Notes: generated by a model not told the origin, from the sequence alone. A stretch of 64,000 nt of DNA from an uncultured virus (IMG/VR IMGVR_UViG_3300028557_000031) (IMGVR_UViG_3300028557_000031:1-64000); one strand, 5' to 3'; positions 7,849-36,121 are shown, counted from the stretch's first letter. Numbers and translations are program-made.

Positions 7849-8274
7849 TTAGGAAAGTTTCTTTATTTCATCTCTTAATTGAATTGCTTTTTCATAGTCT
7901 TGTTGGTCAACTGCTTTTGTCAGTTGTAAGTTAAGGTCTTCAAGTTTAACTTTATTGTCTTCCAAGTTTTTAATCTTGTCACGAAGCTCCACCGCTTTTT
8001 CAAACTCTTGAAGGTTCACCGCATTTTGGAGTTCTTTTCTAAGACGCTCCAAGGTATTTTGTTCTTCGGGTTGTGGAGTGTTCCCGTAGGTTGACCTAAA
8101 AATCGTGGTGAATTGAATCATACCATCTTCAGAGGTAAAGGTTTCTTTTGACCAATCACCATTCTCATCCTTACCATTCTCTTTTTGCGTTTTACCTTTA
8201 AAGATAAATGGGTCTTGGTTTAACAGTGAGTTAAAAAGGTTGTCAAATTCATTAAATAATTTTCTTCTAAACAT
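7849..8274 (-). CDS. Tandem UvrB/UvrC-motif (UVR) protein, candidate Clp adaptor
   Basis: Two UVR repeats: LQNAVNLQEFEKAVELRDKI and LTKAVDQQDYEKAIQLRDEI; divergent from the Clp ATPase. Confidence 0.8.
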   Translation of the reverse strand: MFRRKLFNEFDNLFNSLLNQDPFIFKGKTQKENGKDENGDWSKETFTSEDGMIQFTTIFRSTYGNTPQPEEQNTLERLRKELQNAVNLQEFEKAVELRDKIKNLEDNKVKLEDLNLQLTKAVDQQDYEKAIQLRDEIKKLS

Positions 8275-8339
8275 TTTTTGTATTTTTTAATTTTTTTATT
8301 TGAACCTGATAAGTCAATCCCCGTACCAAATCAAAATAA

Positions 8340-8415
8340 CTGACAAAATGTCTGAATTAGTTTTATTTAGAAATATTTTTATGACATCTTGTCAATTACT
8401 AACAAAATTCTGACA
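8340..8415. promoter_or_regulatory. Repeated TGACA-N3-TGTC(A) operator-like palindromes
   Basis: CTGACAAAATGTCTG (8340-8354), TGACATCTTGTCA (8382-8394) and a half-site CTGACA (8410-8415) in the divergent intergenic region. Confidence 0.5.
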
Positions 8416-8472
8416 GGGGTTTGGAATTGTCCTTTTTTTGATTAACCTTTGTACAAATCAATTCTATAAATT

Positions 8473-10473
8473 ATGAACGACACATTAGGCGACGACGATA
8501 AGACACTCTCAAGGAAGAAACCTACCTCCGAATCGGGTACTCCCGTATTGGATAACTTTTCTCGTGACTTGAACAAATTGGCAGAACAAGGAAAACTTGA
8601 CCCAGTGATAGGTCGGGAGAAAGAGATTATTCGTATTGCTCAAATCCTTTCCCGTAGAAAGAAGAACAACCCTATTATCTTGGGGGAACCAGGCTCAGGT
8701 AAAACCGCTTTGATTGAGGGATTGGCGTCTCTTATTATCAATGGAGAATGTCCCAAAAATCTTCTTGACAAGCGTATTGTCAATTTAGACCTCACCGCTG
8801 TGGTGGCAGGGACAAAGTATCGTGGTCAGTTCGAGGAGCGTCTAAAGGTTATCCTTGAGGAACTCTCCAACAATCCCAACATCATTGTCTTTATCGATGA
8901 GATACACACATTGATTGGTTCAGGTAACTCAACAGGTAGTTTAGACGGTTCAAACATCTTTAAACCCGCACTTGCTCGTGGAGAAATTCAATGTATCGGT
9001 GCAACTACCTTGGATGAGTATCGTAAGTCATTTGAAAAAGACGGAGCTTTGGAGCGTAGATTCCAAAAGGTCATTGTAGACCCCTCATCAGTTGAGGAGA
9101 CCATCCAAATTCTCACTCACATTAAAGACCGATACGAATCGTTCCACAAAGTGGCATACTCTCAAGAAGTAATCGAACTTTGTGTGAAGCTCGCAGACCG
9201 ATATATCACCGACCGTGAGTTCCCCGACAAAGCCTTTGACATTTTGGATGAAGTTGGTGCTCGTAGTCAAACCGAGCAAAAGATTCCTGAAGTAATTGAA
9301 GAACTAAAACTCAAGGCTTCGGAAATCAAACAACAAAAGATGGATGTTGTAAAGAAACAGAACTACGAAGAAGCGGCAGCACTAAGGGACAAGGAGCGTA
9401 AAATCCTTGCTAAACTCGAAGAGGAAAAGCGGAAATACGCGGAAGAATCCTCAACAACTCGTATCCCTATCTCGGTGGAACAAGTCTACGATGTTGTTTC
9501 CAATATGACCAAAATTCCTGTGAGTAAAATGTCAGTTGACGATATTAACGCTCTTATTAATATGGACAAATCCCTTATGGAAAAGGTAATTGGTCAAGAC
9601 GATGCGGTGTCTATGATTGTCAAATCAATCCGTCGTAACCGAATCGGAATCAAAGACCCTAACCGTCCTATTGGTTCATTTATCTTCTTGGGTTCAACAG
9701 GTGTGGGTAAGACCCACTTAGCAAAACAGATTGCTAAGGAGATGTTCGGGTCAGAGGATGCGTTGATTCGAGTCGACATGAGTGAATATCAAGAGAAGCA
9801 CACACTGTCTCGTTTGGTGGGAGCACCCCCAGGATATGTCGGTTACGAAGAAGGTGGACAGCTTACCGAACAGGTAAAAAACAAACCATATGCGGTTATC
9901 CTATTCGATGAGGTTGAGAAAGCCCACAAGGACATTTTCTCTATTCTCCTTCAGATTCTTGATGATGGTCACGCAACCGATTCCCTCGGTCGAAAAATCA
10001 ACTTCAAGAACACCCTTATCATCATGACCACCAACCTCGGAGTCAAGAAACTTCAAGACTTTGGAGCTGGTATCGGGTTCTCCTCTAACAAGTACTCAAA
10101 CGAGGAGGCTAAAAAACAAATCTTGATGAAGGAAATGAAGAACTTCTTTTCCCCCGAGTTCCTAAACCGTATCGATGACACCATTGTGTTCCAAACACTC
10201 ACAAAGGAGAACATCGAGAAGATTGTAGGACTAGAACTTAGTAAACTCTCCAAGCGACTAGGTCACATGAAGTACAAAGTGGTGATGGACCCCACCCTCA
10301 CAGAGTACATTGCAAAAGTCGGTTTCGATGATGAATACGGAGCTCGTCCAGTAAAACGAGCCATCCAAGACAAAATCGAAGATTACCTATCGGAACTTAT
10401 CCTAATAGGTAAACTTAAAGAAAATCGAAAATACACCCTAAAGGTGGTAAATGAAGAGGTGAAAATCTCTTAA
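8473..10473 (+). CDS. clpC: ClpC/ClpA-type AAA+ ATPase lacking the N-terminal Clp-repeat domain
   Basis: Two AAA modules (GEPGSGKT/FIDEIH and GSTGVGKT/LFDEVEKAH), UVR-type middle domain (VKKQNYEEAAALRD), IGF ClpP-docking loop (GAGIGFS). Confidence 0.9.
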   Translation: MNDTLGDDDKTLSRKKPTSESGTPVLDNFSRDLNKLAEQGKLDPVIGREKEIIRIAQILSRRKKNNPIILGEPGSGKTALIEGLASLIINGECPKNLLDKRIVNLDLTAVVAGTKYRGQFEERLKVILEELSNNPNIIVFIDEIHTLIGSGNSTGSLDGSNIFKPALARGEIQCIGATTLDEYRKSFEKDGALERRFQKVIVDPSSVEETIQILTHIKDRYESFHKVAYSQEVIELCVKLADRYITDREFPDKAFDILDEVGARSQTEQKIPEVIEELKLKASEIKQQKMDVVKKQNYEEAAALRDKERKILAKLEEEKRKYAEESSTTRIPISVEQVYDVVSNMTKIPVSKMSVDDINALINMDKSLMEKVIGQDDAVSMIVKSIRRNRIGIKDPNRPIGSFIFLGSTGVGKTHLAKQIAKEMFGSEDALIRVDMSEYQEKHTLSRLVGAPPGYVGYEEGGQLTEQVKNKPYAVILFDEVEKAHKDIFSILLQILDDGHATDSLGRKINFKNTLIIMTTNLGVKKLQDFGAGIGFSSNKYSNEEAKKQILMKEMKNFFSPEFLNRIDDTIVFQTLTKENIEKIVGLELSKLSKRLGHMKYKVVMDPTLTEYIAKVGFDDEYGARPVKRAIQDKIEDYLSELILIGKLKENRKYTLKVVNEEVKIS

Positions 10474-10476
10474 CAT

Positions 10477-10505
10477 AAAAGGGGGGACGAAAGTCCCCCT
10501 TTTTT
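10477..10505 (+). terminator. Rho-independent terminator
   Basis: GGGGGAC-GAAA-GTCCCCC hairpin flanked by A and T tracts, just after clpC. Confidence 0.85.
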
Positions 10506-10532
10506 ATTTATACAGAATTGTATTTATAACAT

Positions 10533-11222
10533 ATGAGGGACATTATAATCAAGATATTAAAAGAAGAAGTTAGTAAAGGTAAGGTTACTTGTGACAATTG
10601 TGGTTGGTCTTGGAAACTATCCGAGGGGGGTCATGACCCATATATTTGTCATCAGTGTAATCACAACAACGAACCCAAAAATTTAAAAGAATCTTACAAA
10701 CACCCCAATCAAGAAAGTTTCGACAAATACTTTCTTTTAGTAAAAAAATATTGGGATAAAGTTGGTCTCTCTCGGAAATCGGAAAAAATGGCTGGTAAAT
10801 ATATTTTAGATTCTTCACTAACATTTCCTTTTGCCATAGAGTATCTTGGTGGTACCAAAAAATTTATAAAAGAAATATCAGATAAAATTCAAAATCAAGT
10901 TTTTGATTGTAAAGAATGTGGGGGATATAATTTCAAGTATTATGTTGATGAGTTTGATGTGGAAAGAAACTATAATTTTCACGAAATTAATGTTTCGGTA
11001 GTTGTTGATACCTCAATATCAGGTAGTACTTACAGCTCCGAAGATTTCAGTTTTACAAATGTAGATTACCAATTATTGTCAAACTTAGAAGGTTCTGAAT
11101 TTTATGGTGAGGTAATCCAAGAACTCAAGGCAATAATTAGTGAAGAATTAGAAAAAAAGATAGATGCACCGTTTGAACTTTGGGCTGACATTGTACGATT
11201 AGATTTTGAAACTTTTAATTAG
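10533..11222 (+). CDS. Hypothetical protein with an N-terminal zinc ribbon
   Basis: CDNCGWSW...YICHQC motif; TATTTAT upstream. Confidence 0.65.
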   Translation: MRDIIIKILKEEVSKGKVTCDNCGWSWKLSEGGHDPYICHQCNHNNEPKNLKESYKHPNQESFDKYFLLVKKYWDKVGLSRKSEKMAGKYILDSSLTFPFAIEYLGGTKKFIKEISDKIQNQVFDCKECGGYNFKYYVDEFDVERNYNFHEINVSVVVDTSISGSTYSSEDFSFTNVDYQLLSNLEGSEFYGEVIQELKAIISEELEKKIDAPFELWADIVRLDFETFN

Positions 11223-12046
11223 AACACCCACGGATTTGTTTGAGGTTTCAAATCTTTTTGATGTTTACGATATCCCAATTTTTCAATCATTTTTTTACCC
11301 ATCTCAATTCCATTAAAAACATCTTCGATTACAACATATTCGTAGGGGGTGTGGTAGTCGTAGTACCCAATAGAGAAATTAATACAGGAGATGTCAAATT
11401 TACCCCGTAAAGCCCATACATCTGTATAGGGGTGAACCATATACTCTAAGTCTTCACCAATACCCTCAGTTAAAATGTTATTACAAACATCAAAGAATTC
11501 AGAATCACGGTTGAACAATTGCTGACCCCAACAATATTCAGTCACCATCCAATTTTCGGGAGCATCGAACTGAATACCATATCCAACATTTTCAAAGAAC
11601 TCGGGACTAGCTTTTTTTGAACCATGACAACCCGTTTCTTCAGAAACAAAAAATGTCGCTTTCAGATTCGGTAGTTCCTCCAATAATTCCAAACAAGCAA
11701 AAACACCAGCTTTGTCATCACCCCCAATTCCTGTGGGCTCGTCATGGTCGTTATAAGCTTTAAGAGAAGGGCGTTGCTCCCCTTGAGCATTTACCAAAAA
11801 TTCCTCACGGATATTGATAGGTCCCAACCCATGTACGGTGTCGGTATGAGAAATCACACAAGGGAAATATTCAATATTCTCATCAGTTTGTTTAGTTGCA
11901 TAAACATTTAGATGTTCATCCACGAAATATGGGATTTGTTTTTCCTTTAACCACTCACAAATAAACTCGACCATCATACCCTCTCGGTATGTTGCGGTTG
12001 GAACGGATAAGACTTTCTTTAAGAATTCAATTTTACTGTGAGTCAT
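11219..12046 (-). CDS. Zinc metallopeptidase (M28/M42/M20-like)
   Basis: HTDTVH, GGDDKAG, SEETG, QFD and YHT metal-ligand motifs. Confidence 0.8.
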   Translation of the reverse strand: MTHSKIEFLKKVLSVPTATYREGMMVEFICEWLKEKQIPYFVDEHLNVYATKQTDENIEYFPCVISHTDTVHGLGPINIREEFLVNAQGEQRPSLKAYNDHDEPTGIGGDDKAGVFACLELLEELPNLKATFFVSEETGCHGSKKASPEFFENVGYGIQFDAPENWMVTEYCWGQQLFNRDSEFFDVCNNILTEGIGEDLEYMVHPYTDVWALRGKFDISCINFSIGYYDYHTPYEYVVIEDVFNGIEMGKKMIEKLGYRKHQKDLKPQTNPWVF

Positions 12047-13181: not shown

Positions 13182-13196
13182 ATTAATATAAATACT

Positions 13197-13204
13197 TATA
13201 TTTG
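13197..13204 (+). promoter_or_regulatory. Bacteroidota-type -7 promoter box upstream of tmRNA
   Basis: TATATTTG fits TAnnTTTG, 18 nt before the tmRNA 5' end. The same box recurs at 14772, 30577, 52384, 63261 (+) and 17744, 22699, 24531, 28679, 30131 (-). Confidence 0.65.
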
Positions 13205-13222
13205 TAGAGTTCTTTGAAATAT

Positions 13223-13824
13223 GGGGGTGAACGGTATTGATTGGCAGGGTTAATCATACGGGGCATGCAGTGAGATGTTTCCTATCACTTTAATCTATGG
13301 GAGTGCTTTTTAAGTGGCAACACTTTTGAAAAGCTTCAGGCTGTAGGTCTTCTTACAACTGAAGCGGTTACTGTAGCTTAGGCTATAATAACCGTGGGTC
13401 GATGGGGACATATACCTTGAAACAGAAGTCCTTATGGTGTGGTTTCTACCTTAAAAGAAATGGAGGTAATGTTTGGTGTTCTACCGATTTGAGTGAACAC
13501 TCCACAGTTTCTGATGACGATGGCAAAATAGGAATCAGATATTTCGGAGGGTTAAACAAACCCTGACCTAAGCATGTAGTCCTTTATGGGTAAACTGAGC
13601 AAGACGTGGGTTAAAAATCGAGCCCCTTCATATCGTGAGATATGTCGAAAATCGGATGAATTCAGGGGAAGTCTTTCGGGATTATCCTGAGCCAAGCCTG
13701 GTAGGAATAGGAAGGTGCAGAGACTAGTGGGTGGTAGACGCTTCTACCGTAATACCACATTAGCGTCCGACATCTTGAAAAAGATGATGATATAGTCCAC
13801 TTGTGTCGAATCCCACCACCTCCA
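13223..13824 (+). ncRNA. ssrA: tmRNA interrupted by a group I intron in the T-loop
   Basis: Acceptor stem GGGGGTG/CACCTCC with G3-U70 and discriminator A; GGGCATGC...AGCATGT helix; tag frame 13316-13381 (GNTFEKLQAVGLLTTEAVTVA*); T-arm GTGGG-TTCGAAT-CCCAC restored only when 13612-13805 is removed. Confidence 0.92.
13612..13805 (+). mobile_element. Group I self-splicing intron (194 nt, no ORF)
   Basis: P1 GGGU|U pairs with AGCCC giving a U-G splice pair; P/Q motifs GAATTCAGGGGAA and TATCCTGAGCC; R GTGCAGAGACTAG; S GATGATATAGTCC; P3 TCGGATG/CGTCCGA; terminal G at 13805. Confidence 0.9.
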
Positions 13825-13980
13825 CCGTGGACAAATTTGAAAGGGTCTTTAATTAGACCTTTTCATTTGTTCATAAATTAGATTTATAATTTATGTAAAA
13901 TTTGATGTTAAGTTTTATTATTTTTTACTACTTGACAGATAATTATTGTCGATTATAATATTCAATATAATTTATACAAA

Positions 13981-14649: not shown

Positions 14650-14737
14650 GGAAAAGTATCCAAGTTGTTGTACGGCACCTGACTTAAAATCAGACATAAG
14701 GTAAACCATATCGGGGAATCAAATCCCTCCTTTTCCG
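14650..14737 (+). tRNA. Degenerate tRNA with a Ser-type body and TAA anticodon (probable pseudo-tRNA)
   Basis: Acceptor GGAAAAG/CTTTTCC, discriminator G, long variable region, loop CT-TAA-AA, T-loop ATCAAAT, D-loop lacks GG. Confidence 0.55.
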
Positions 14738-14789
14738 CAGAAAAATATTTGAAAGTTTATAAATTATTTATTATATTTGTACAGACAAA

Positions 14790-14861
14790 GGGCCCATAGG
14801 TAAAGGGATATACCCTCTCACTTCTAATGAGATATTTCAGGTTCGAATCCTGGTGGGCCTA
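14790..14861 (+). tRNA. tRNA-Arg(TCT)
   Basis: GGGCCCA/TGGGCCT acceptor, TCTCA-CTTCTAA-TGAGA anticodon arm, TTCGAAT T-loop. Confidence 0.88.
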
Positions 14862-15224
14862 CAAAAGTTATGAAATCAAGTCAAGAAGACATAAAAAAAA
14901 CCCGATACAATGGTGTGGCACCTGAGGGCTATACCTTGCTTCGAAATGAAGTTTTAGCAGAACTAAAAAATTTTGATAATTGGAAAGCTTGGAAAAACGA
15001 CGAAATTTCCCTCTACGACCTCGATAAGACGGATATTTCGGAATAGAATTCATAATTTTGATATATTTAAACCTAAACCCCCCTTTCTATGAATCCTGAA
15101 ATTCTCAACACCACTGATATCCTCTTCCAAAGCGGTCAAATTATTGACAAAGCTCAATGTGAGATTTATCTTTGTGAATGGGATAATATCCATGGTGATA
15201 TTGTCTTGTTTGTATAAATAAAAA

Positions 15225-15297
15225 GCGGTAATAGCTCAGTTGGTAGAGCACGTTCCTTCCAAGTACGGGGTCGCAGGTTCGAATCCTGTTTACCGCT
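15225..15297 (+). tRNA. tRNA-Gly(TCC)
   Basis: GCGGTAA/TTACCGC acceptor, discriminator T, loop CT-TCC-AA, canonical D and T arms. Confidence 0.9.
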
Positions 15298-15506
15298 CAA
15301 AGTAGACCTTCAAAAGGGCCCTTCCGTATTTATACGGCTTGTTGGGCCCGGGTCTATTTTAAAATAAACAGTACCTCGAGGCTTCCCGTAAGAACAGCTC
15401 TAAATTCTGAGGTCTTATAGTGATACAAGTGAATAACCCAAGGCATAAGATACAATCACACCCCCAACCTCTCCTTGGAGGACGCTTCAAGGATGTTGGG
15501 GTTTTA

Positions 15507-15582
15507 GCCGAAGTAGCTCAGTGGTAGAGCAGCTTTCGTAAAAGATGGTGTGACGCGATAGGTTCGATTCCTGCCTTCGGCT
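15507..15582 (+). tRNA. tRNA-Thr(CGT)-like gene with an aberrant anticodon arm
   Basis: GCCGAAG/CTTCGGC acceptor, canonical D arm and TTCGATT loop; anticodon arm shortened (CTTT-CGTA-AAAG) and variable region lengthened. Confidence 0.6.
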
Positions 15583-15606
15583 CTTAATTACTCAATAAAC
15601 TATTTA

Positions 15607-16453: not shown

Positions 16454-16744
16454 TCATTGTTCCCAATCTGAAAATTTCAAACCCCACATCAAACCAATCA
16501 TAGCCATTTCCCTTTCCGCAAGGTGTTTGTTGATTCTAAGATTTTTTCTTATAAATTCAGTACCCCACAACTGCCATTCATCATTTTGAGCTTTGGTCAT
16601 TTCCCATTCCTGATACCAAGAATCTTTTCTGTCTTTAATATCCTCGTAAGAAATATTATGACCTGCAATATAAAACATTTTGTTGATTAGTTCTTCAACA
16701 ACTTTCTGATTTTTTTCCTGTTTTGATAATCGCTTCTTTGTCAT
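16454..16744 (-). CDS. Hypothetical phage protein
   Basis: 96-aa ORF translationally coupled to its neighbours. Confidence 0.55.
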   Translation of the reverse strand: MTKKRLSKQEKNQKVVEELINKMFYIAGHNISYEDIKDRKDSWYQEWEMTKAQNDEWQLWGTEFIRKNLRINKHLAEREMAMIGLMWGLKFSDWEQ

Positions 16745-17361
16745 TACATTAAAAATTTTATAATTTTATCCTTTATACCTGATTGCTTTATACCTTCCCA
16801 AGACCTTGGTGTTTGAACAAAATTACTTAAGCCTGGTTTGTTATCTGAACCATCTCTGTCAGAAAATTGAGCACCCAAAAAATCTATAGACATATCCAAA
16901 TCATCAACCGCAACCCAATGAGTAATCTCAGGATGAGATTCCAACCAATGTTGAATTTCCATGAATCTCTCTAATTCCAAATCAGCCCTGAATCTTAGTT
17001 TAGCCCATTCAGATGGAAATAAATCTTTAAACATTCCTGTGGTATCTATTGGTCTTTTAATAACACCCTGTGATAAGTAATAATCTCCAAGTTCCTCGAG
17101 TGTTGCGTGAAACCTCCAATCTGAACTCACCACATATTCTGCGCCTGTTTTCTCAAGAATTTTGTTGAAAACCTTAATCGCTTTTGGGTCGAAGTTATCA
17201 AATCGAACATATACAGGTAAGTCATTTGCTGATGTACCCATAGTTCTACCCTCTTTGATTTGTTTCTTCCTACGAGAACCCCAGTTCTCTGCCAAGCAGA
17301 TTACACCATCATTATCTAAGAATATTACTTTCATCTTGAATTGATTTGTAGTGAGATTCAT
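16744..17361 (-). CDS. HAD-superfamily phosphatase (Swiss-Army-Knife RNA-repair type)
   Basis: KVIFLDNDGV, VVSSDWR and WVAVDD motifs; true start probably MKVIF. Confidence 0.78.
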   Translation of the reverse strand: MNLTTNQFKMKVIFLDNDGVICLAENWGSRRKKQIKEGRTMGTSANDLPVYVRFDNFDPKAIKVFNKILEKTGAEYVVSSDWRFHATLEELGDYYLSQGVIKRPIDTTGMFKDLFPSEWAKLRFRADLELERFMEIQHWLESHPEITHWVAVDDLDMSIDFLGAQFSDRDGSDNKPGLSNFVQTPRSWEGIKQSGIKDKIIKFLM

Positions 17362-17665
17362 AATATGTGAGTGGCATCAAATGTCCCTTTTCACCTGATA
17401 TTGCTTCTTTGAGTGTTGAATAATGAAACACTTGGTCATTGGAAACAACAACCCAATTTTTTTGGTTTGCTAAGTTTGGTCTAGTTAAATACATAATACA
17501 ACAAAGATACAACAAAAATTACTACCAAACTAATAAAGGCGATTTTATATCCTCCTTGAATTTTGTGTTTTGACCTACCTTGCCAATCCTCGGGGTTCCA
17601 AGATTCTTTCCAATTGTCAGAATATTTGTTTCTCATATTTTTTTTAGTTATTACAGAATGACTTG

Positions 17666-17731
17666 TAGCCCGACGGGGAATCGAACCCCTGAGTAAAAAC
17701 CAGGTGCTCTATCTATTTGAGCTAATATCCC
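17666..17731 (-). pseudogene. Chimeric or deleted tRNA remnant
   Basis: 5' half GGGATATTAGCTCA...CCTGG-TTTTTAC-TCAGG joined directly to GGTTCGATTCCCCGTCGGGCTA; the acceptor strands do not pair and the variable loop is missing. Confidence 0.6.
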
Positions 17732-21118: not shown

Positions 21119-21364
21119 ATCCCATCCTCAGGATTTACAGTCACAGTACAAGAAATTGGGTCTGATGTTGTTTGGTCGGGTTCCGGTAATTTGAACCTGA
21201 CTAACTTAACATTTCAAAATAGCAGCACATTGACCGCAGGATTTTCAGCTACTCAAGCAATTTGGGCTGCAGGTCCGAGGTTTTCAAAATATATTTTGCC
21301 ATGTTTTTTTTTTCTTAAAATTAGTTAATTAAAAATTTAAAGTCAAATAGCGGAAAAACTTTAG

Positions 21365-21438
21365 GGTGAATAATGGGAATCGAACCCACGACGCTCGGAA
21401 CCACAAACCGATGCTCTACCAACTGAGCTATATCCACC
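21365..21438 (-). tRNA. tRNA-His(GTG)
   Basis: G-1 plus GTGGATA/TATTCAC acceptor with C73, loop TT-GTG-GT, canonical arms. Confidence 0.9.
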
Positions 21439-21446
21439 GTAAAAAA

Positions 21447-21551
21447 CGTCGGGGTAGGAATCCCACCTACAAGCGAGAACAACCCTTTAAAAGGGTCTTG
21501 ATGTTCTCCATTCAAAATTGAATGTGCCTTTGTCAATTCAGCCACCCGACT
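21447..21551 (-). ncRNA. tRNA-like RNA with a very long variable arm and non-canonical loops
   Basis: GTCGGG/CCCGAC acceptor, D-like arm, CATTC-AATTTT-GAATG, ~34-nt arm GAGAAC...GTTCTC, GTAGG-TGGGATT-CCTAC. Confidence 0.6.
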
Positions 21552-21560
21552 AACCTATTT

Positions 21561-22103
21561 TTAATTTTTACCCACGACTTCAGCAACAACAAATCGTTCA
21601 CCCGATAACACAGGTGTCACTTCATGAAATAGACTTCCATCAAAAAGAATCGCCATTCCTTTTTCTTTAGGTACAACTTTATTATTAACAATTAATTCGC
21701 CACCCTCAAAGTCATCATTTAACATCAATATCACAAGCCATCTTGTATCGGATGAGGGAATGAAATCAATGTGTCTAGTATGTTTACCACCTAAAGGATA
21801 ATGAGTAAAATAATGTGGGAATTCCAAAATAAAATTTGTAAGAATACATCCAAAACATTTTAAAAAAATATCCGATAGAAAAGGTAAATCATTTTTTTGT
21901 ATCCCAACAATATCAACAACTCTATTTGGAGCATTTATTCTTGTAATAGATTTTGAAGTAGTGTCCCACACATTTTTATCAATATCAATAAAAGAATTAA
22001 AACTATTCCAAAAGTTTATAACACTTTTAATTTCGTCATTAGAAATCACATTTCGGATTATTTTAAAATCACCATAGTCTTCTATATTTTTACAAATATC
22101 CAT
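21561..22103 (-). CDS. 2OG-Fe(II) oxygenase
   Basis: HID, LNDDFEGGEL and HEVTPVLSGERF motifs. Confidence 0.85.
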   Translation of the reverse strand: MDICKNIEDYGDFKIIRNVISNDEIKSVINFWNSFNSFIDIDKNVWDTTSKSITRINAPNRVVDIVGIQKNDLPFLSDIFLKCFGCILTNFILEFPHYFTHYPLGGKHTRHIDFIPSSDTRWLVILMLNDDFEGGELIVNNKVVPKEKGMAILFDGSLFHEVTPVLSGERFVVAEVVGKN

Positions 22104-22311
22104 TTGAAATTGTTTTGTAGAATAATAAATTAATTATTTTTTTTCTTCAATTTGAGACTCCATCAATTCAATTGCCCTTTTTAAGTGATTAACATAAAAA
22201 GGTATGTCAAATTTGTCTTCCTTTCCATATGATTTAACTGAATCTTGAACATATTTCAGTTCCCAAAGTATTTCATTTACGGTTTCTTTTGTCATAATTT
22301 AATAATTTAAG

Positions 22312-22409
22312 TGGTGTGAGCGGGATTCGAACCACGCGGCACGGTCTTTTTCACGGACTTGCTCTACCATGGGAGTATCATATGAGTACTCCACCTGAGC
22401 TATCACACC
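22312..22409 (-). tRNA. tRNA-Phe(GAA) with a hairpin insertion in the D-loop
   Basis: GGTGTGA/TCACACC acceptor, loop GT-GAA-AA, insert GGAGTA-CTCATATGA-TACTCC inside the D-loop; weak anticodon stem and bulged T-stem. Confidence 0.65.
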
Positions 22410-22416
22410 ATTTTTG

Positions 22417-22497
22417 TACCGGAAGAGGGACTCGAACCCCCACGCTAAAAAGCAGATGCTCCTAAGGCATCCGTGTCTACCATTCCACCACACCGGC
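22417..22497 (-). tRNA. tRNA-Leu(TAG)
   Basis: GATGC-CTTAGGA-GCATC anticodon arm, variable arm, TTCGAGT T-loop, discriminator A. Confidence 0.88.
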
Positions 22498-22502
22498 ACT
22501 TA

Positions 22503-22650
22503 GTTGGTAGTAGTTGACTTTATCAGGAATCCCGCCTAACCCCCAAAAGAGGTTCAGCTTCACACACCATTAGAGAGAGGGTATATTCTTAGTGTGTACC
22601 CTTGCGATATGCTCTCTCATACTGTCAACTCACGCATTGTTACTACCAAC
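22503..22650 (-). ncRNA. Unidentified structured RNA in the tRNA array
   Basis: 10-bp closing helix GTTGGTAGTA/TACTACCAAC, GTTGAC/GTCAAC, GAGAGA/TCTCTC, nested hairpins and a potential pseudoknot; TAnnTTTG box upstream. Confidence 0.6.
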
Positions 22651-22733
22651 CGTTATTTGTTTTTAACATTTCAAAGACCTTATGTCTTAACAACACCACA
22701 AATATATGTCGACATTTTTATAAAACCAAATGT

Positions 22734-23222
22734 CTAAAAAACTTTTTCCGAATTTTGTTCAACCCAAGACAAACTTATAGAAACATGTTTAGAAGATTTC
22801 TTCTTAGACAACTCTATTTTGGTTTTAACAATTTCCAAAACCTTGTCAGTTGTACATTTCCAAATATTCTTACAAGTTAGACCATCTTTTTTATCAAACA
22901 AGGCAAAAAAGAAAGCATCGTTTCTTTCGACTCTATGAAGGTTGTCTTCGTGGATTCTGTCAAGTTGAAAGGTCCCCCCCTCTTTACAAGATAGGTATTC
23001 GTACTTTTCTTTACCGTCTTTAGAATATGCATCAGCACCATGTTTTGTCTTATGACATTTATGGTCGAGAATTTCAGACACCATCCATTCTTTAATAAAT
23101 CCTGGTGTTAACAGGTCTTGTTCGAACCCATTTTCTTTTTTATACAGGTTTAAAGTTCCCACTAGTAGAAGGAGGGGGTTTTCCTGTTGTCTTATTAAAT
23201 TTATCAATTCTTCTTGGGTCAT
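22734..23222 (-). CDS. Possible PD-(D/E)xK restriction-endonuclease-fold protein
   Basis: HGADAYSKDGKEKYEYLS resembles the catalytic segment of PvuII-type nucleases, but the lysine is absent. Confidence 0.4.
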   Translation of the reverse strand: MTQEELINLIRQQENPLLLLVGTLNLYKKENGFEQDLLTPGFIKEWMVSEILDHKCHKTKHGADAYSKDGKEKYEYLSCKEGGTFQLDRIHEDNLHRVERNDAFFFALFDKKDGLTCKNIWKCTTDKVLEIVKTKIELSKKKSSKHVSISLSWVEQNSEKVF

Positions 23223-23234
23223 AAGGGTATATGT

Positions 23235-23311
23235 TGGTGGGCCTGGCAGGAATCGAACCCGCGACCTCGAAATTATGAGTTTCTCGCTCTAACCGTCTGA
23301 GCTACAGGCCC
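23235..23311 (-). tRNA. tRNA with CAT anticodon, Ile2-type body, encoded CCA
   Basis: GGGCCTG/CAGGCCC-A-CCA, loop CT-CAT-AA; lacks the initiator C1:A72 mismatch and GGG/CCC anticodon stem. Confidence 0.85.
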
Positions 23312-23472
23312 TGATGTTTTGTCAATTATAGAAAATCAATTTCATATTGTCAAATCGTTTACCTTGAAAGAGTTGAATTTCCGACATTTTTTATCTGAGT
23401 TAAAAGTGTTTAGTAAACTTTTTTTTGTTACAATAAACCTCATTAGTTTATTGAGCAATTTTTAGTTTATTG

Positions 23473-23544
23473 TGACCCCGAGGCGATTCGAACGCCCGAC
23501 TAGTATGTTAAGACACACTGCTCTACCATCTGAGCTACGGGGTC
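23473..23544 (-). tRNA. tRNA-Lys(CTT)-like gene with a 6-nt anticodon loop
   Basis: GACCCCG/CGGGGTC acceptor, canonical D and T arms, GTGTG-TCTTAA-CATAC anticodon arm. Confidence 0.7.
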
Positions 23545-23621: not shown

Positions 23622-23864
23622 AAAAATTTAACAAAGTATAACCAAGATTCTGTATTTAATCTATCATTAGTCTATTTGCCCCCACCTTACCCGACCAGCT
23701 CACCGTCGTGGGTTGTTTTGGGTTGCATCCTCGGTGGTAATGACGATATAAGGATGTGGACTTATAACTGACCATTATAAGTTTGTTCCCTTATATCTCC
23801 CACCTTAAGCGTGTGATGTCCTGAGTTTCCTCTCCTAAGAGCGACAGAACTTTGTTAAATTTTT
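23622..23864 (-). ncRNA. rnpB: RNase P RNA, minimal (reduced S-domain)
   Basis: 16-bp P1; P2 TCTGTC/GATAGA; P3 CTC-TTAG-GAG; CR-I GAGGAAACTCAGGA pairing with CR-V ACAGAATCTTGGTTAT to form P4 with a bulged U; P5 CATC/GATG followed by CAA; CR-IV-like AGACTAATGA. Confidence 0.85.
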
Positions 23865-28224: not shown

Positions 28225-28503
28225 TTTTTATTTAAAATATAGATGCCGCGTCGTCAGATTCAAGTAAAACTTTGATTCCCAAATATTTTTCACAAACCTC
28301 ATAAAAGTCTTCCACCTTTGTTTTTGTCAAGTCCTGAGGGTTATCAATTGTTAGGTAGAAACCTGATTTGCTTTCGAAGATAGATTTTTCTTCGTTGTAC
28401 TCAAAATATGCCATTTTTCTGTATCCACGATACTTGGCTTCAGGTAAAAATTTATCAAACATTGTTTGAAATGGTGGTTTAAAAAATGAACCTTTTGTCA
28501 TAG

Positions 28504-28576
28504 TTGTGTGAATGGGATTCGAACCCATGACCTGAATGGTATAAGCATTCTACTCTCACCACTGAGCTACCACACA
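28504..28576 (-). tRNA. tRNA-Ile(TAT)
   Basis: TGTGTGG/TCACACA acceptor, GAATG-CTTATAC-CATTC anticodon arm, canonical D and T arms, discriminator A. Confidence 0.85.
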
Positions 28577-28582
28577 AATTTG

Positions 28583-28667
28583 TACCTCGGGCGGGACTCG
28601 AACCCGCACGGACCCTTCGGTCCATTTGATTTTAAGTCAAACTTGGCTACCTTTACAACACCGAGGC
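28583..28667 (-). tRNA. tRNA-Leu(TAA)
   Basis: GCCTCGG/CCGAGGT acceptor, TTTGA-CTTAAAA-TCAAA, variable arm GGACC/GGTCC. Confidence 0.9.
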
Positions 28668-29415: not shown

Positions 29416-29769
29416 TCAATCAGCCGACTCAATTTTTAATGTCCGTGTCATCCAAATTGGTTTAGGATTAGTCTGCAACCCAATAATCCATTCCTTTGCT
29501 GTTGGAATATAGTTGTTACAGTCTTCCTTGACATGTTGTTCACCAACATATCGAGTGTAAACGGTACGACTTTCAGAGTTGACAAAAGATACTCCAAATA
29601 CTCTTTCCATTTCGAAAATACCTTCACTATGGTGACGAAAGATTCTATGTAAAGAATCTCCAAACCAACCTTTAGTTTCATCCATCCACTGATGTAGATG
29701 ATGATAATCCTCGGGTTTACCACCAAATTTCCTCGCGGATGATTTTGAATGTTCAAATGGGTGAGCCAT
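29416..29769 (-). CDS. DUF6915-like protein
   Basis: MAHP..HS.SSARKFGG...DY...H.WMD...HR..RHH..GIF...GEQHV.ED. Confidence 0.65.
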   Translation of the reverse strand: MAHPFEHSKSSARKFGGKPEDYHHLHQWMDETKGWFGDSLHRIFRHHSEGIFEMERVFGVSFVNSESRTVYTRYVGEQHVKEDCNNYIPTAKEWIIGLQTNPKPIWMTRTLKIESAD

Positions 29770-31077: not shown

Positions 31078-31345
31078 AGATTTTTTCTAATATTAAAGAA
31101 AAAAATATACATGAATACAAATAACCCACTCAGTCATCAAGATTTGATGAACGCCTCACTTTTGTTTTCCAAAGCACTCTCTTTAATTTTAGATGACAAA
31201 CAAGGTATTGTTGTTGATATTGTCCCCGATTCAGGTGTTGACATGGGAGAAAACACAACCAAAGTTGTTATTTACCGTTTGGAAAATCAAATTCACGTGC
31301 AAAATTTAGAAATGGATATTGTTGAAGGAACTATAGTAGCTCTTA

Positions 31346-33046: not shown

Positions 33047-33053
33047 TTTTATT

Positions 33054-34646
33054 ATGAGTGTAATCTATGGTCTTTTCGCAGCTGGACATAGTCCATCAAC
33101 AACTTTGATTGTTGACGGTGAAATAATACATGCAGTAGAAGAAGAGAGAATCAAACGAATTAAATCGGGAGAAGATTATGGGGCGTACCCCGATTTATCA
33201 CTAAAGGCTGTCGAAGATAGAACTAATATAAAACTTAAAGATGCTGATTATGTGGTTTTTGCTGAGCCAGCACCACCGGTATATGCTAGGAGATTAACTA
33301 ATGATAATTATTCTAAAGTGTCTCACCACCTTGCACATAATACCGCAGCTTATTTTACAAGTGGAATGGAAGGAAAAGTACTTTCAATTTCACATGATGG
33401 TGGTGGAGAATCTTCTTTTATGCGAGTCTATGTATGTGAGGATGGTAAGATGAATGAAGTTCATCGATTATCCGGAACTAACTCTGGCAGTCTTTCACAA
33501 CTCTGGGGATTTATAACAAATTGGATGATGGGTCGTAATTCAAATTGTAGGTTTGAATGGATAATGTGTAAGGATGAAGGTAAGGTCATGGGAATGGCAC
33601 CTGATGGTTATTACGATGAAAGAATCCAAAAAATTCTACATAGTATCCTATCATATAATGATTTGAAATTTTATCCTTCGGGAACTGACCAAAAAACGAA
33701 GTTTGTTATGGAACGATTACTCGAAGAAGGTTTTTTTGACACTCTTAAAAAACGAGAAGTTTTCAGTTTTAATTTACAATACTTTACTGAAGAATTGATG
33801 TTGAGATTTATCGACGACCTACACAAGAGAATGCCCGACTACAAGAAACTCTGTTTTTCAGGTGGTCTTTTTGCAAATGTTAAACTGAACCAAAAAATAA
33901 ATGAATTACCGTGGGTTGAAGAAATATACATTCTTCCTCCAATGGGTGATGAAGGGCTTTCTTTAGGCGCGGCAATTCATAAAGCAGTTGAATTAGGTGA
34001 AATTACAAAACCAATAAAACTTAAAAATGTATATTTTGGTTTTGATTATTCAGATGAAGAAGTTATAAACTTGGCTACAAAACATGATTTTTTAGTTAAA
34101 AAATATATTGTTGATGAAATTGCGACGGATTTAAATAAAGGTTTGATTATTGGATGGTTTCAAGGTAAAATGGAACTTGGACCACGTTCCTTGGGAGCAA
34201 GGAGTATTTTGGTAAGACCTACAGATTACAATACCCACGCAGAGTTAAATCGAAGATTGAAAAGATATGATACAATGCCTTTTGCACCAATGATAATGGG
34301 TGAGTTTTTTGAAACGGTTTTCCCGACCGCAAAATCCAAGTATGCCGCTCAGTTTATGACTTTAACATTTCCAACCCATGAACCATGGATTTATAAAATT
34401 CCCGCAGTAATTCAGAAATCGGATAAAACTGCCAGACCTCAGGTAGTGGAAAAAGAAAATCTTCCCAAAGTTTGGGAACTTATGAATTCGTACTACGAAC
34501 TCTCAGGAATCCCATTACTACTTAACACCTCATTCAATGCTCATAACGAACCCATTATTGAGCACCCCGAAAATGCTTTTGTTCACCTTAAAAATAAAGT
34601 GATTGATAAATTAGTTATTGGAGATTATGTATACGAAAATAAATAA
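33054..34646 (+). CDS. Carbamoyltransferase (NodU/CmcH family), second paralog
   Basis: EEERIKRIK, HHLAH, EGKVMGMA, GGLFANV, GPRSLGARS, LLNTSFN. Confidence 0.9.
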   Translation: MSVIYGLFAAGHSPSTTLIVDGEIIHAVEEERIKRIKSGEDYGAYPDLSLKAVEDRTNIKLKDADYVVFAEPAPPVYARRLTNDNYSKVSHHLAHNTAAYFTSGMEGKVLSISHDGGGESSFMRVYVCEDGKMNEVHRLSGTNSGSLSQLWGFITNWMMGRNSNCRFEWIMCKDEGKVMGMAPDGYYDERIQKILHSILSYNDLKFYPSGTDQKTKFVMERLLEEGFFDTLKKREVFSFNLQYFTEELMLRFIDDLHKRMPDYKKLCFSGGLFANVKLNQKINELPWVEEIYILPPMGDEGLSLGAAIHKAVELGEITKPIKLKNVYFGFDYSDEEVINLATKHDFLVKKYIVDEIATDLNKGLIIGWFQGKMELGPRSLGARSILVRPTDYNTHAELNRRLKRYDTMPFAPMIMGEFFETVFPTAKSKYAAQFMTLTFPTHEPWIYKIPAVIQKSDKTARPQVVEKENLPKVWELMNSYYELSGIPLLLNTSFNAHNEPIIEHPENAFVHLKNKVIDKLVIGDYVYENK

Positions 34647-35277
34647 CGTTGGAATTCATTATTTTTTAGAAAATGGAGTTAGGGTTCGAGTAGAAGGTCC
34701 TGATAATTATTACTATGTAGAAATAAGAGAGTATCCTAAGAATTCTACTGAATCATATTATTTAGAGGGATATCATCTAATTAAAGAACCTTCTTCTTGT
34801 TATGGAGTTCAAGTATTTCAGTATGATGTGAAATTTTATTATGACTTCGAACTTTTAGTTTATAAGTTAGATGTAAACCACGGATTAGTACAAATCTTTC
34901 ACCATAGATTCGATGACAGAGAAAAATTAGTTTTATTCAACATCGATAGTCATGATTTAAAAGAGGCTACTTTGTGGTATGAAAAATGTTTGTTGTACAC
35001 CGATTTACACGGTTGCAAGCCTGTAATAAGAACTCATTTCGATGAATTGAATCATCGTAATAAAAACTATTTCTCTACAGATGTTTTCGAATTTTACAAA
35101 GTCTATAGCATAGGGCGTTATCCAAAAACTAGTCAGGATTTCCGTAGTATTGGAGACCAAAGAGTTGAAAACACAACTTGGTTTGGTTTATGGAAAAAAT
35201 TCTGGTCTTACGAACATCCTCGTGAATGGAAATTGCTAACCTCCGAGGAAATAGTTGATGATATCCTCGGATTTTAG
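34618..35277 (+). CDS. Hypothetical protein coupled to the carbamoyltransferases
   Basis: 219-aa ORF overlapping the upstream gene. Confidence 0.6.
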   Translation: MEIMYTKINNVGIHYFLENGVRVRVEGPDNYYYVEIREYPKNSTESYYLEGYHLIKEPSSCYGVQVFQYDVKFYYDFELLVYKLDVNHGLVQIFHHRFDDREKLVLFNIDSHDLKEATLWYEKCLLYTDLHGCKPVIRTHFDELNHRNKNYFSTDVFEFYKVYSIGRYPKTSQDFRSIGDQRVENTTWFGLWKKFWSYEHPREWKLLTSEEIVDDILGF

Positions 35278-35443
35278 TATTTTTTGAGAAACAACTCTCA
35301 AATGTGAATGTTAAAAAATACTTTGAATTCACAAAAACTATAAACGGGACAAATTATTTCTTACAACAACTTTTAACAATTGGTTTGGCAGTTATAAATT
35401 TAAACCTTATCTTTGTTAACTCAAATAATTTAAAATACAACGG

Positions 35444-36121
35444 ATGAACATTTCCCAAGAATTCAAAAAGTACGCAATGAGTGATTACAATGTGTCTTCA
35501 CTTACAATGTATAACTTCGAGAAACAAATCGAAAACTCACTAACCCCTTATATTTTGGAAGAGCGTGAACTTCGAGCAACTCAAATAGATATTTTTTCTC
35601 GATTGATGAGAGATAGACTTTTGTGGGTTGCAGGACCAGTCAATGATAATATGTCCACAATTGTTCAGGCACAACTAATGTTCTTAGATTCTGCCGATAA
35701 AACAGATATTACAATGCACATAGATTCTCCAGGTGGAAGTGTAAAATCAGGACTTTCTATTGTAGATGTTATGGATTATATCTCATGTGACATCCGTACC
35801 GTGAATACTGGTCTTGCCGCTTCTATGGGTTCGATATTGTTGGGAGCGGGAACTAAAGGAAAACGAAGTTCACTTCGATTCTCCCGTACAATGCTACACC
35901 AATCATCTGGTGGTGCTGGCGGAAATATTCAGGATGCTGAGATTACATTTAAAGAATGGAAAAAAATTAACGACACTCTATTTATTCTTCTCGGTGACTA
36001 CTGTGGAAAAGACTCTGAACAGGTCAAACAAGACGCACAACGCGATTTATGGCTCGATTCACAGGAAGCCTTAGATTATGGTATTATCGATGAAATAGTG
36101 ACAAAAAAAGGGGGTCACTGA
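35444..36121 (+). CDS. clpP: ATP-dependent Clp protease proteolytic subunit
   Basis: DIFSRL, IDSPGGSV, AASMG (catalytic Ser), MLHQ (His), RDLWL (Asp), YGIIDEI. Confidence 0.93.
   Translation: MNISQEFKKYAMSDYNVSSLTMYNFEKQIENSLTPYILEERELRATQIDIFSRLMRDRLLWVAGPVNDNMSTIVQAQLMFLDSADKTDITMHIDSPGGSVKSGLSIVDVMDYISCDIRTVNTGLAASMGSILLGAGTKGKRSSLRFSRTMLHQSSGGAGGNIQDAEITFKEWKKINDTLFILLGDYCGKDSEQVKQDAQRDLWLDSQEALDYGIIDEIVTKKGGH

What the first reader, a model, noticed from the sequence alone, without database searches (positions are those of the whole stretch)
7849..36121. Candidate self-contained rescue system: tmRNA, RNase P RNA, tRNAs, ClpC/ClpP and a UVR adaptor
Seen within ~28 kb: a tmRNA, an RNase P RNA, 14 tRNA or tRNA-like genes, a ClpC-type unfoldase with an IGF loop, ClpP, a double-UVR protein, a zinc peptidase and a HAD RNA-repair-type phosphatase; a nucleotidyltransferase and a KTSC protein lie just to the left. 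Known: RNase P matures tRNA and tmRNA 5' ends, and Clp proteases degrade tmRNA-tagged proteins. Inference: the phage may encode the chain from RNA maturation through ribosome rescue to destruction of tagged products, possibly countering host defences that cleave tRNA or mRNA. No smpB or rnpA is visible in this window, and co-location alone does not prove a shared pathway.
Basis: inference. Interest (0 to 1): 0.8.

Follow-up and report, generated by a model that had tools for sequence, protein, structure and literature searches.

The report
Phage ribosome-rescue and protease gene cluster
A giant lake phage carries its own ribosome-rescue RNA (split by a self-splicing-type intron), a shrunken tRNA-trimming ribozyme gene and a protein-shredding machine close together; the parts are real and unusual, but they are inherited separately and lack their protein partners, so they look like add-ons to the host's machinery rather than one self-contained system.

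Summary
All listed parts are real. The RNase P RNA (23627-23859) is a 233-nt miniature: catalytic domain kept, specificity domain cut to one stem. It belongs to a covarying family found in 42 viral records, which my searches did not find in print.

The 'self-contained chain' fails its own test. In 21 clade records spanning ClpC to ClpP, tmRNA and the peptidase are in all 21, but so are unrelated control genes (19 of 19). RNase P RNA is in 3 of 21 and the UVR protein in 11 of 20 (Hsp20 otherwise). SmpB is in 3 of 52 records, RnpA in 0 of 42. None of 6 near-complete phages with the mini RNase P RNA has ClpC or ClpP.

What survives is an untested smaller circuit: a conserved 21-22-residue tag (Bacteroidota tags about 9) beside a ClpC lacking its N-domain. 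This scan noted each element before on other DNA.

The parts
6731..7483 (-). Virus-specific nucleotidyltransferase, 250 aa, pol-beta/MNT-like domain plus helical bundle; substrate unknown, CCA-adding not shown
   Evidence: PF01909 18.5 bits, below cut-off; Atlas 0.99, viral clusters; model pLDDT 89.8, best fold rows minimal nucleotidyltransferases Z 7.2, rmsd 4.2, 104 aligned, no clear match; in 18 of 19 other spanning records
7504..7746 (-). KTSC-domain protein, 80 aa, clade core gene
   Evidence: PF13619 58.4 bits; 18 of 19 other spanning records
7849..8274 (-). Double-UVR protein, 141 aa, divergent from clpC; short helix, three-stranded sheet and two UVR hairpins that copy the tip motif of the ClpC M-domain; sits in a swappable slot
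   Evidence: PF02151, 2 stretches; model pLDDT 70.3; best solved relatives McsA, UvrB and ClpC M-domain; slot holds UVR in 38, Hsp20 in 25 and nothing in 14 of 77 assessable loci
8473..10473 (+). ClpC-type AAA+ unfoldase, 666 aa, naturally lacking the N-terminal domain; M-domain tip (Y298, R305, D306), pore loops and IGF loop intact
   Evidence: about 29 residues before the AAA1 start against about 185-195 in cellular homologues; nearest cellular homologues mostly Bacteroidota at 54-61%
11219..12046 (-). M20/M42-type zinc peptidase, 275 aa, clade core gene
   Evidence: PF01546 25.1 bits, phrog_4191; metal-site motifs H67/D69, D110-D111, E136-E137, H232; 21 of 21 spanning records
13223..13611 (+). 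tmRNA exon 1: acceptor 5' strand, tag reading frame, up to U54 of the T-loop
   Evidence: RF00023 39.1 bits, truncated; ARAGORN on the spliced form; G3-U70 pair and A73 kept
13316..13381 (+). Tag reading frame, 21 codons plus stop: GNTFEKLQAVGLLTTEAVTVA
   Evidence: family of 38 distinct 21-22-aa tags; G1, K6, G11, L12 invariant in 36 of 36 tag frames, pN/pS 0.60 in frame against 0.83 and 0.94 out of frame
13612..13805 (+). ORF-less group I intron, 194 nt, between U54 and U55 of the tmRNA T-loop
   Evidence: RF00028 75.1 bits; boundary scan plus the U|...G| rule; natural pair L336/L337 with and without it; four related introns at the same site
13806..13826 (+). tmRNA exon 2: rest of the T-arm and acceptor 3' strand; encodes A-C-C then G, so the terminal A must be added
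14650..15583 (+). Four tRNA genes: Leu-like (degenerate T-loop), Arg(TCT), Gly(TCC) and one with an irregular anticodon arm
16744..17361 (-). HAD phosphatase of the Swiss Army Knife RNA-repair type, 205 aa
   Evidence: PF18143 72.3 bits; 20 of 21 spanning records
17665..17731 (-). Degenerate tRNA-like element (approximate ends)
   Evidence: not called by ARAGORN or at Rfam cut-off
21364..23544 (-). tRNA group: His, a degenerate long-arm element (21448-21550), an element with a D-loop insert (22312-22409), Leu(TAG), Met(CAT) and a tRNA with a 6-nt anticodon loop (23472-23544)
23627..23859 (-). Miniature RNase P RNA gene, 233 nt: P1, P2, stub P3, P4, P5, P6, P15, P16 with the GGU motif; specificity domain reduced to P7 plus one stem; no P18
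   Evidence: 93% of cells paired, 19 of 22 pairs with two-sided changes, 0 of 500 shuffles; z -3.4
28503..28667 (-). tRNA-Ile(TAT) and tRNA-Leu(TAA)
35444..36121 (+). ClpP peptidase, 225 aa, triad intact, 25 kb from clpC
   Evidence: PF00574 193.7 bits; best NCBIfam model PRK14514; triad; in all 3 complete clade records

Best explanation
This is the conserved translation and protein-turnover neighbourhood of a clade of about 310-320 kb phages, most likely infecting Bacteroidota. It holds a fixed core and separately moving accessories, and it supplements host machinery instead of replacing it.

Core (shown by distribution): tmRNA with a 21-22-aa tag, N-domain-less ClpC, ClpP, peptidase, HAD phosphatase, nucleotidyltransferase and KTSC protein. 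Accessories (shown): the group I intron, the mini RNase P RNA, variable tRNAs, and the double-UVR gene or Hsp20.

Mechanism (inferred):
1. The tmRNA precursor splices out the intron, is trimmed and completed at the 3' end, and is charged with alanine through its G3-U70 pair.
2. It works with host SmpB to free stalled ribosomes during infection and appends the long tag.
3. The mini RNase P RNA adds 5'-trimming capacity for phage tRNAs and tmRNA, most likely with the host RnpA protein; host RNase P does this job in relatives that lack it.
4. Phage ClpC and ClpP form an active ATP-dependent protease. Without the N-domain it reads unstructured tails at the pore, so tagged proteins are plausible but probably not its only substrates.
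5. The double-UVR protein is an optional regulator that pairs with ClpC M-domain tips, not a tag-reading adaptor.
For: Spanning records. In 21 records spanning ClpC to ClpP: tmRNA 21, peptidase 21, HAD 20, mini RNase P RNA 3 (two are the same phage), intron 3, UVR 11 of 20. The RNA is absent from all 3 complete clade records and from 8 records with 20 or more tRNAs in the interval; a relaxed profile search and a P4 scan found no others.

Reciprocal test. Of 42 records with the mini RNA, 6 have ClpC; of the 6 that are at least 90% complete, none has ClpC or ClpP.

Missing partners. RnpA 0 of 42 and 0 of 5, with controls ringing in 10 of 14. SmpB 3 of 52; none of these 3 has the RNA.

RNA genes cross protein lineages. 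RNase P alleles 89-93% identical and tmRNA 83-86% identical to ours sit in phages whose ClpC is only 69-71% identical.

Slot and tag. The slot label needs 7 changes on the ClpC tree, and identical or near-identical tags occur in UVR, Hsp20 and empty-slot lineages.

Catalysis. Catalytic motifs are intact. E. coli RNase P RNA without its S-domain still cleaves and is about 190-fold faster with the protein (kapp 0.095 against 18; PMC5839562 Table 1, passage read).
Against: Most records are fragments, and only two distinct complete clade genomes were available (G004 and G039 are near-copies by length and gene positions). Our own contig is about 25% complete, so smpB could lie elsewhere.

The 80 loci were chosen by ClpC similarity and the 21 by having ClpP, so their presence is built in. 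A more diverged RNase P RNA could escape a sequence-only model.

The four assessable records with both the mini RNA and ClpC beyond our own contig (G001, G002, G120, G128) all have the UVR gene, and 8 of 10 large mini-RNA records carry a tmRNA. Some linkage therefore exists.

No activity was measured for any part.
Confidence: 0.7

Rival explanations
1. Fully self-contained chain: the phage RNase P RNA matures phage tmRNA and tRNAs, phage tmRNA tags stalled products, and the UVR adaptor delivers them to phage ClpCP, all independent of the host and selected as one anti-defence system.
For: All parts lie within 28 kb and look intact. Mini-RNA phages usually have tmRNA (8 of 10). The assessable records with mini RNA and ClpC have the UVR gene.
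Against: Mini RNA in 3 of 21, UVR in 11 of 20, SmpB in 3 of 52, RnpA in 0 of 42. No ClpC or ClpP in 6 of 6 near-complete mini-RNA phages. Both strands and 30 ORFs lie in the span. Control genes are as syntenic as the proposed members.
Confidence: 0.07
2. Private tag-and-destroy circuit, a narrower model compatible with the best explanation. The 21-22-aa tag is tuned to the phage's N-domain-less ClpC/ClpP. The double-UVR protein caps the M-domain tips, breaks the head-to-head resting contacts and switches the protease on, much as the F436A mutation does in engineered S. aureus delta-N ClpC.
For: Tag length and pattern are conserved across 38 distinct peptides and under purifying selection. Bacteroidota tags are 8-10 aa ending LAA or MAA in 23 of 24 called, while only 8 of 38 phage tags end in AA. 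No phage ClpC of this clade that was read has an N-domain. In S. aureus, delta-N ClpC degrades GFP-SsrA only when M-domain contacts are broken (PMC5699869, PMC12583610; passages). Both UVR copies carry the same aromatic-E-x-A-x-x-x-R motif as the ClpC tip.
Against: The M-domain tip is intact in ClpC with UVR (32), Hsp20 (23) or an empty slot (12), so the brake does not covary with the proposed key. Tags move between ClpC lineages. Long tags (21 and 29 aa) also occur in phage records where no ClpC was found (L313, L307/L309). ClpP lies 25 kb away.
Confidence: 0.35
3. Decoy and takeover model: the phage tmRNA and mini RNase P RNA mainly titrate host SmpB, RnpA or host nucleases, or write a tag that is poorly degraded. 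ClpC/ClpP serve host-protein removal or virion assembly, unrelated to the tag.
For: A tmRNA-like RNA similar to the truncated form in phage DS6A inhibits host tmRNA (PMC4131195, PMC11915505; passages). A poxvirus RNase P-like RNA had no cleavage activity (PMC3001073, passage). [quoted passage not shown] The clp block lies about 6 kb from the terminase gene.
Against: The tmRNA is full length with a G3-U70 pair and a tag under amino-acid selection. The mini RNA keeps P4 fully paired in 22 of 22 sequences with invariant catalytic-core bases, plus P6 and P15, more than a decoy needs.
Confidence: 0.2

Closest known systems
Bacterial trans-translation with Clp proteolysis (tmRNA-SmpB; ssrA tag degraded by ClpXP/ClpAP/ClpCP)
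   Same: Full-length tmRNA with alanine identity elements and a tag frame; Clp ATPase with pore loops and IGF loop; ClpP with intact triad.
   Different: Phage-encoded. Tag of 21-22 aa against about 9 in Bacteroidota; SmpB mostly absent; ClpC lacks its N-domain; coupling of tag and protease not shown.
Phage tmRNA, SmpB and Clp genes in huge phages (PMC7162821; Bacillus phage G, PMC12484599; mycobacteriophage tmRNAs, PMC4131195; passages read)
   Same: tmRNA, tRNA arrays and, in phage G, ClpP with ClpX are already reported from large phages.
   Different: No mention of RNase P in the main text of PMC7162821 or PMC12484599, and none of Clp in PMC7162821. Phage G's tag is 13 aa. No N-domain-less ClpC or UVR partner is described there.
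Intron-form tmRNA genes (883 sequences, four T-loop subsites; PMC11915505, passages read)
   Same: Group I intron in the T-loop, U before and G at the end, no homing endonuclease, 604-nt gene (smallest known 545).
   Different: On phage contigs. The site after the first loop U corresponds, by my reading of the figure legend (figure not seen), to subsite 2, reported only from Anaerolineae and one Myxococcota; Bacteroidia introns are at subsite 3. That study searched only RefSeq viruses.
[quoted passage not shown]
   Same: P4 pseudoknot with the conserved core motifs, P5, P6, P15-P16 and the GGU motif. Like type T, the specificity domain is reduced to one stem; P18 is absent.
   Different: Viral; 233 nt; scores far below Rfam cut-offs; no protein subunit gene in 42 records; no T-loop identified in the remnant stem; activity untested.
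ClpC/ClpP of Firmicutes with MecA or McsA/McsB; engineered delta-N ClpC of S. aureus (PMC5699869, PMC12583610)
   Same: Two AAA domains, UVR-type M-domain with the aromatic/Arg/Asp tip, IGF loop. McsA's UVR motif is the best solved match to the small protein.
   Different: N-domain lost naturally. The partner is a virus-only double-UVR protein without MecA or McsA zinc-finger domains, and it is replaced by Hsp20 or nothing in 39 of 77 loci.

Membership tests
tmRNA (standard/intron form) | tRNA-like domain with G3-U70 pair, discriminator A and T-arm | tested here: met
   T-arm is complete only after intron removal
tmRNA (standard/intron form) | Tag reading frame with resume codon and stop | tested here: met
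   21 codons at 13316-13381; conserved and under selection
tmRNA (standard/intron form) | Tagging activity with SmpB | not testable with these tools
   needs biochemistry
Group I intron | Conserved catalytic core (P3-P8, P7 motifs) | tested here: met
   RF00028 75.1 bits over the whole model, cut-off 50; core invariant in 4 alleles
Group I intron | U before the 5' site, terminal G, P1 and P10 pairing | tested here: met
   exon 1 ends GGGU and can pair with GCCC in the intron; UCGA in the intron can pair with UCGA of exon 2; last base G13805; boundaries match the L336/L337 pair
Group I intron | Splicing in vivo | tested here: inconclusive
   RNA-library contigs of relatives show the joined form and intron pieces, but intronless alleles are common and contigs cannot separate the two
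RNase P RNA (RNA-based RNase P) | P4 pseudoknot with bulged U and conserved core motifs | tested here: met
   7 pairs, 100% of cells paired, 4 with two-sided changes in 22 sequences
RNase P RNA (RNA-based RNase P) | P5, P6, P7 and P15 helices | tested here: met
   82-93% of cells paired, every pair with a two-sided change; slid controls 29-47%. P1-P3 and P16 were not counted (poorly aligned)
Bacterial type A RNase P RNA (RF00010) | Specificity domain with P8-P12 and interleaved T-loops; P18 | tested here: not met
   only P7 and one stem between the P5 strands; no P18
RNase P RNA (RNA-based RNase P) | Protein subunit gene (rnpA) in the same genome | tested here: not met
   PF00825 in 0 of 42 records, 0 of 6 near-complete
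RNase P RNA (RNA-based RNase P) | Accurate 5' cleavage of pre-tRNA | not testable with these tools
   needs an in vitro assay
ClpC (class I Hsp100) | Two AAA+ domains with Walker A/B and pore loops, UVR-type M-domain, IGF loop | tested here: met
ClpC (class I Hsp100) | N-terminal Clp_N repeat domain | tested here: not met
   about 29 residues before AAA1 against about 185-195 in cellular homologues
ClpP | Ser-His-Asp triad and family match | tested here: met
   S127, H152, D201; PF00574 193.7 bits
ClpC adaptor (MecA/McsA type) | MecA domains or McsA zinc fingers | tested here: not met
   only UVR stretches match; McsA model 39.4 bits against cut-off 210
ClpC adaptor (MecA/McsA type) | Binding to ClpC and substrate delivery | not testable with these tools
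   needs a pull-down and a degradation assay
CCA-adding enzyme | Sequence or fold match to class I or class II CCA-adding enzymes | tested here: inconclusive
   only a sub-threshold PF01909 match; fold searches give weak matches across the superfamily, the archaeal CCA enzyme at rank 19

The most novel reading that the evidence does not exclude
These phages run a private quality-control loop: a tmRNA that writes a long phage-specific tag, read at the pore of a naturally N-domain-less ClpC/ClpP whose M-domain brake is released by a virus-only double-UVR protein. In this lineage the RNA side is further served by a catalytically active, viral, miniature RNase P ribozyme and gated by self-splicing of the tmRNA. 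It would still borrow host SmpB and probably RnpA.
Probability: 0.25. Interest if true: 0.85.

Novelty: new variant of a known kind. Interest (0 to 1): 0.55.

Why it matters
The integrated system is not supported, but three testable things come out of the region.

(1) A viral RNase P RNA of about 230 nt with almost no specificity domain. It is a natural version of the engineered catalytic-domain-only ribozyme and a convergent parallel to archaeal type T. It is missed at Rfam cut-offs and was found here in 42 viral records. If active, viruses encode their own RNase P ribozyme, and the minimal requirements of that enzyme can be tested directly.

(2) An intron-split phage tmRNA that ARAGORN does not call, which means phage tmRNA genes are undercounted.

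(3) A natural N-domain-less ClpC next to a long conserved tag and an M-domain mimic. This allows a clean test of whether a phage can own the degradation step of ribosome rescue.

The distribution data also warn that synteny in this clade is generic and is not evidence of a pathway.

Tried and rejected
Complex prediction of ClpC residues 22-345 with the double-UVR protein, both without alignments: no answer (score 0.14, mark 0.34). It is not evidence either way.

Fold search with the UVR-protein model: no match at E 0.001 or better. Nucleotidyltransferase fold searches: no clear match, so CCA-adding activity is neither shown nor excluded.

The idea that the tag resembles a UBA, RuvA-C or Clp_N helix (recalled patterns): no Pfam match for 8 tags at E 10. 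The idea that ClpC loses its M-domain tip where the UVR gene is absent: rejected; the column-by-column comparison in that script failed and was not rerun. The gene upstream of the mini RNA (23935-24525) as its protein partner: it occurs in 4 spanning records without the RNA and has no Pfam or PHROG match; rejected. The weak RNA-model hit in G014 (14 bits) lies in a coding region and was dropped. Four of 25 pattern hits (L129, L136, L139, L140) were coding sequence and were dropped before alignment.

blastn of the mini RNA against 50,697 annotated phage records gave only short chance matches, and no cultured close relative of the ClpC was seen. The intron region alone does not fold better than shuffles (z -1.2). 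ARAGORN at relaxed threshold gave only noise.

RNA runs: 24 were listed, none holding half the words. Four were laid. They are contigs of relatives, so they give no strand, level or proof of splicing, and uncovered parts mean nothing.

Literature searches that found no description of phage RNase P RNA, intron-split phage tmRNA or a phage tag-ClpC circuit: (listings only; open-licence PMC and bioRxiv only). The supplement of PMC11915505 gave no hit for five terms; it names no taxa that I could search, so phage intron-form entries in that database are not excluded.

Full report
Setting. The window is the first 64 kb of a 74,204-base virus record, about 25% complete, with a T4-like large terminase at 410-2170. 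Eighty viral loci with a ClpC 70-100% identical to ours share the order terminase, three unknown genes, nucleotidyltransferase, KTSC, slot, ClpC, peptidase, tmRNA; 599 relatives were confirmed and only the best 80 kept. Complete members are 309-321 kb. The best 80 cellular ClpC matches are nearly all Bacteroidota at 54-61%, and the 65 phage sequences form one branch apart from 10 cellular ones. A TAnnTTTG motif, recalled as the Bacteroidota -7 box, lies 26 bases upstream of the tmRNA; 29 of its 102 window matches fall in the 15% of the window that is non-coding. A Bacteroidota host is therefore likely but inferred.

tmRNA and its intron. Neither ARAGORN nor Rfam at cut-off calls a tmRNA. Rfam instead finds a group I intron at 13602-13818 (75.1 bits), and the stretch before it matches RF00023, cut at the T-arm. 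Of 800 trial excisions, 2 restore a tmRNA, with the same product; the rule of U before and G at the end picks 13612-13805, between U54 and U55. Close relatives L002 and L004 have an uninterrupted 410-nt gene, and L336 and L337 carry near-identical genes with and without the same intron. Of 55 complete tmRNA genes in the ClpC and UVR loci, 3 have it; 6 more had no 3' end called, one of them cut inside the intron. Intron-form tmRNA is well catalogued in bacteria at four T-loop subsites; that study searched RefSeq viruses only (PMC11915505, passages). In one lake RNA library, contigs stop at 13612 and continue with the exon-2 sequence, and intron pieces are present in two libraries. These come from relatives and cannot separate splicing from intronless alleles.

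The tag. Tags were read in 57 of 62 loci: 38 distinct peptides, 32 of 21 and 6 of 22 residues. G1, K6, G11 and L12 are invariant in 36 of 36 distinct 21-codon frames; third positions vary most; pN/pS is 0.60 in frame against 0.83 and 0.94 out of frame (relatedness and RNA structure not corrected). ARAGORN called 24 of 30 Bacteroidota tmRNAs. Of these 23 have 8-10-residue tags and one has 16 (probably a miscalled start); all end LAA or MAA. Only 8 of 38 phage tags end in AA. Against a private code, long tags of 21 and 29 residues also occur in unrelated phage records where no ClpC was found.

Mini RNase P RNA. The element at 23627-23859 (minus) reaches only 34 bits against the archaeal model in a narrow search and is missed in the 32-kb search. 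Two pattern scans gave 25 and 22 viral loci; 4 were coding false positives and one record was hit twice, leaving 42 records of 21-68% GC, mostly among tRNA genes. In 22 aligned sequences, 22 pairs of P4, P5, P6, P7 and P15 are 93% paired, 19 show two-sided changes, and no shuffle of 500 reaches this; slid controls give 29-47%. The patterns required the P4 flanking motifs, but left the pairing of the variable P4 positions free. The specificity domain is P7 plus one stem and P18 is absent, as in archaeal type T (PMC13462272, passages). E. coli RNA without the S-domain still cleaves, about 120-fold slower than wild type and about 190-fold faster with its protein than without (PMC5839562, passages). 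My searches found no paper on phage RNase P RNA; the only viral precedent seen is an inactive poxvirus RNA (PMC3001073, passage).

Protease side. ClpC keeps all ATPase, pore and IGF motifs but has about 29 residues where cellular homologues have about 190. ClpP has an intact triad and is in 24 of 40 records, including all 3 complete clade records. The slot upstream of clpC holds a double-UVR gene in 38, Hsp20 in 25 and nothing in 14 of 77 assessable loci (57 distinct proteins scanned: 36 UVR, 21 Hsp20), and needs 7 label changes on the tree. The UVR protein is known only from viral clusters; both repeats copy the ClpC M-domain tip motif. [quoted passage not shown] That makes an M-domain cap the best guess for the small protein. 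The tip is however intact in all slot classes, and the same tags occur with UVR, Hsp20 or nothing, so it is optional and not tag-specific.

The co-occurrence test. I joined the ClpC-to-ClpP interval for 21 records, ours included. tmRNA and peptidase are in 21, HAD in 20, the UVR gene in 11 of 20, the intron in 3 and the mini RNA in 3, two of which are the same phage. Genes with no link to the model are just as fixed (two DUF genes 19 of 19, HNH 18 of 19). The RNA model hits 4 of 52 clade records properly and none of the 3 complete ones; 8 of the 18 records without it have 20 or more tRNAs in the interval. SmpB is in 3 of 52 records, none with the RNA. Conversely, 6 of 42 mini-RNA records have ClpC, none has RnpA, and the 6 near-complete ones have neither ClpC nor ClpP.

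Two results favour partial linkage. Eight of 10 large mini-RNA records have a tmRNA above cut-off (no baseline measured). The carriers inside the clade share one tmRNA allele group (83-86% identical to ours) across ClpC lineages only 69-71% alike, although G014 has that allele and no RNA. The RNA genes thus travel as a loose island, apart from the protease lineage.

Verdict. The region is a core neighbourhood plus mobile accessories that lean on host SmpB and probably RnpA (confidence 0.7). A private tag-to-ClpCP loop remains open (0.35); the fully self-contained chain is unlikely (0.07). Phage tmRNA, SmpB and Clp genes as such are known (PMC7162821, PMC12484599, PMC4131195; passages). The miniature viral RNase P RNA, the intron-split phage tmRNA and the long tag beside an N-domain-less ClpC are variants of known kinds that my searches did not find in print; subscription journals and most supplements were not searchable. 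Earlier AI notes of this scan describe each on other genomes; I used them as leads only.

Noticed in passing
   Followed up: yes
L017, L019, L045, L051, L052 (tmRNA 3' ends): Some clade tmRNAs have a non-canonical T-loop starting GGC instead of UUC, at the very site where the intron inserts; possibly escape from intron homing or from a nuclease.
   Followed up: no
window 22312-22409 (-): tRNA-like gene with an approximately 25-nt hairpin inserted in the D-loop and an irregular anticodon arm.
   Followed up: no
window 23472-23544 (-), 15507-15583 (+), 14650-14737 (+), about 17665-17731 (-), 21448-21550 (-): Several tRNA genes look damaged or altered. This phage has 9 ARAGORN tRNAs where its 96% relative G002 has 27, so the array may be decaying.
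   Followed up: partly
window tRNA genes and tmRNA: Only 1 of 11 tRNA genes (Met) encodes CCA, and the tmRNA encodes ACC then G, so 3' completion is needed. The neighbouring nucleotidyltransferase could not be assigned to this job.
   Followed up: partly
window 28699-29403 and 29416-29769 (-): DUF6878 and DUF6915 genes are as conserved in the clade (19 of 19) as ClpC and ClpP; function unknown.
   Followed up: no
window 31346-34646 (+): Two tandem carbamoyltransferase genes just upstream of clpP, present in 9 of 19 relatives, with glycosyl/methyltransferase (26761-28224) and 2OG-Fe(II) oxygenase genes nearby.
   Followed up: no
window 22505-22610 (-) and 15300-15505 (+): Non-coding stretches between tRNA genes with stable hairpins and no Rfam match.
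   Followed up: no
L311, L314, L316, L322: Some members of the mini RNase P family carry an extra hairpin at the P18 position, and L311 and L316 have no tRNA within 6 kb.
   Followed up: no
window 46649-47443 (+): A thymidylate-synthase-like ORF appears truncated and is followed by an ORF that repeats its last approximately 45 residues; family name recalled, not searched.
   Followed up: no
G003, G032, G053: Three clade records encode SmpB (161-177 bits); in G003 it lies far from the tmRNA.
   Followed up: partly
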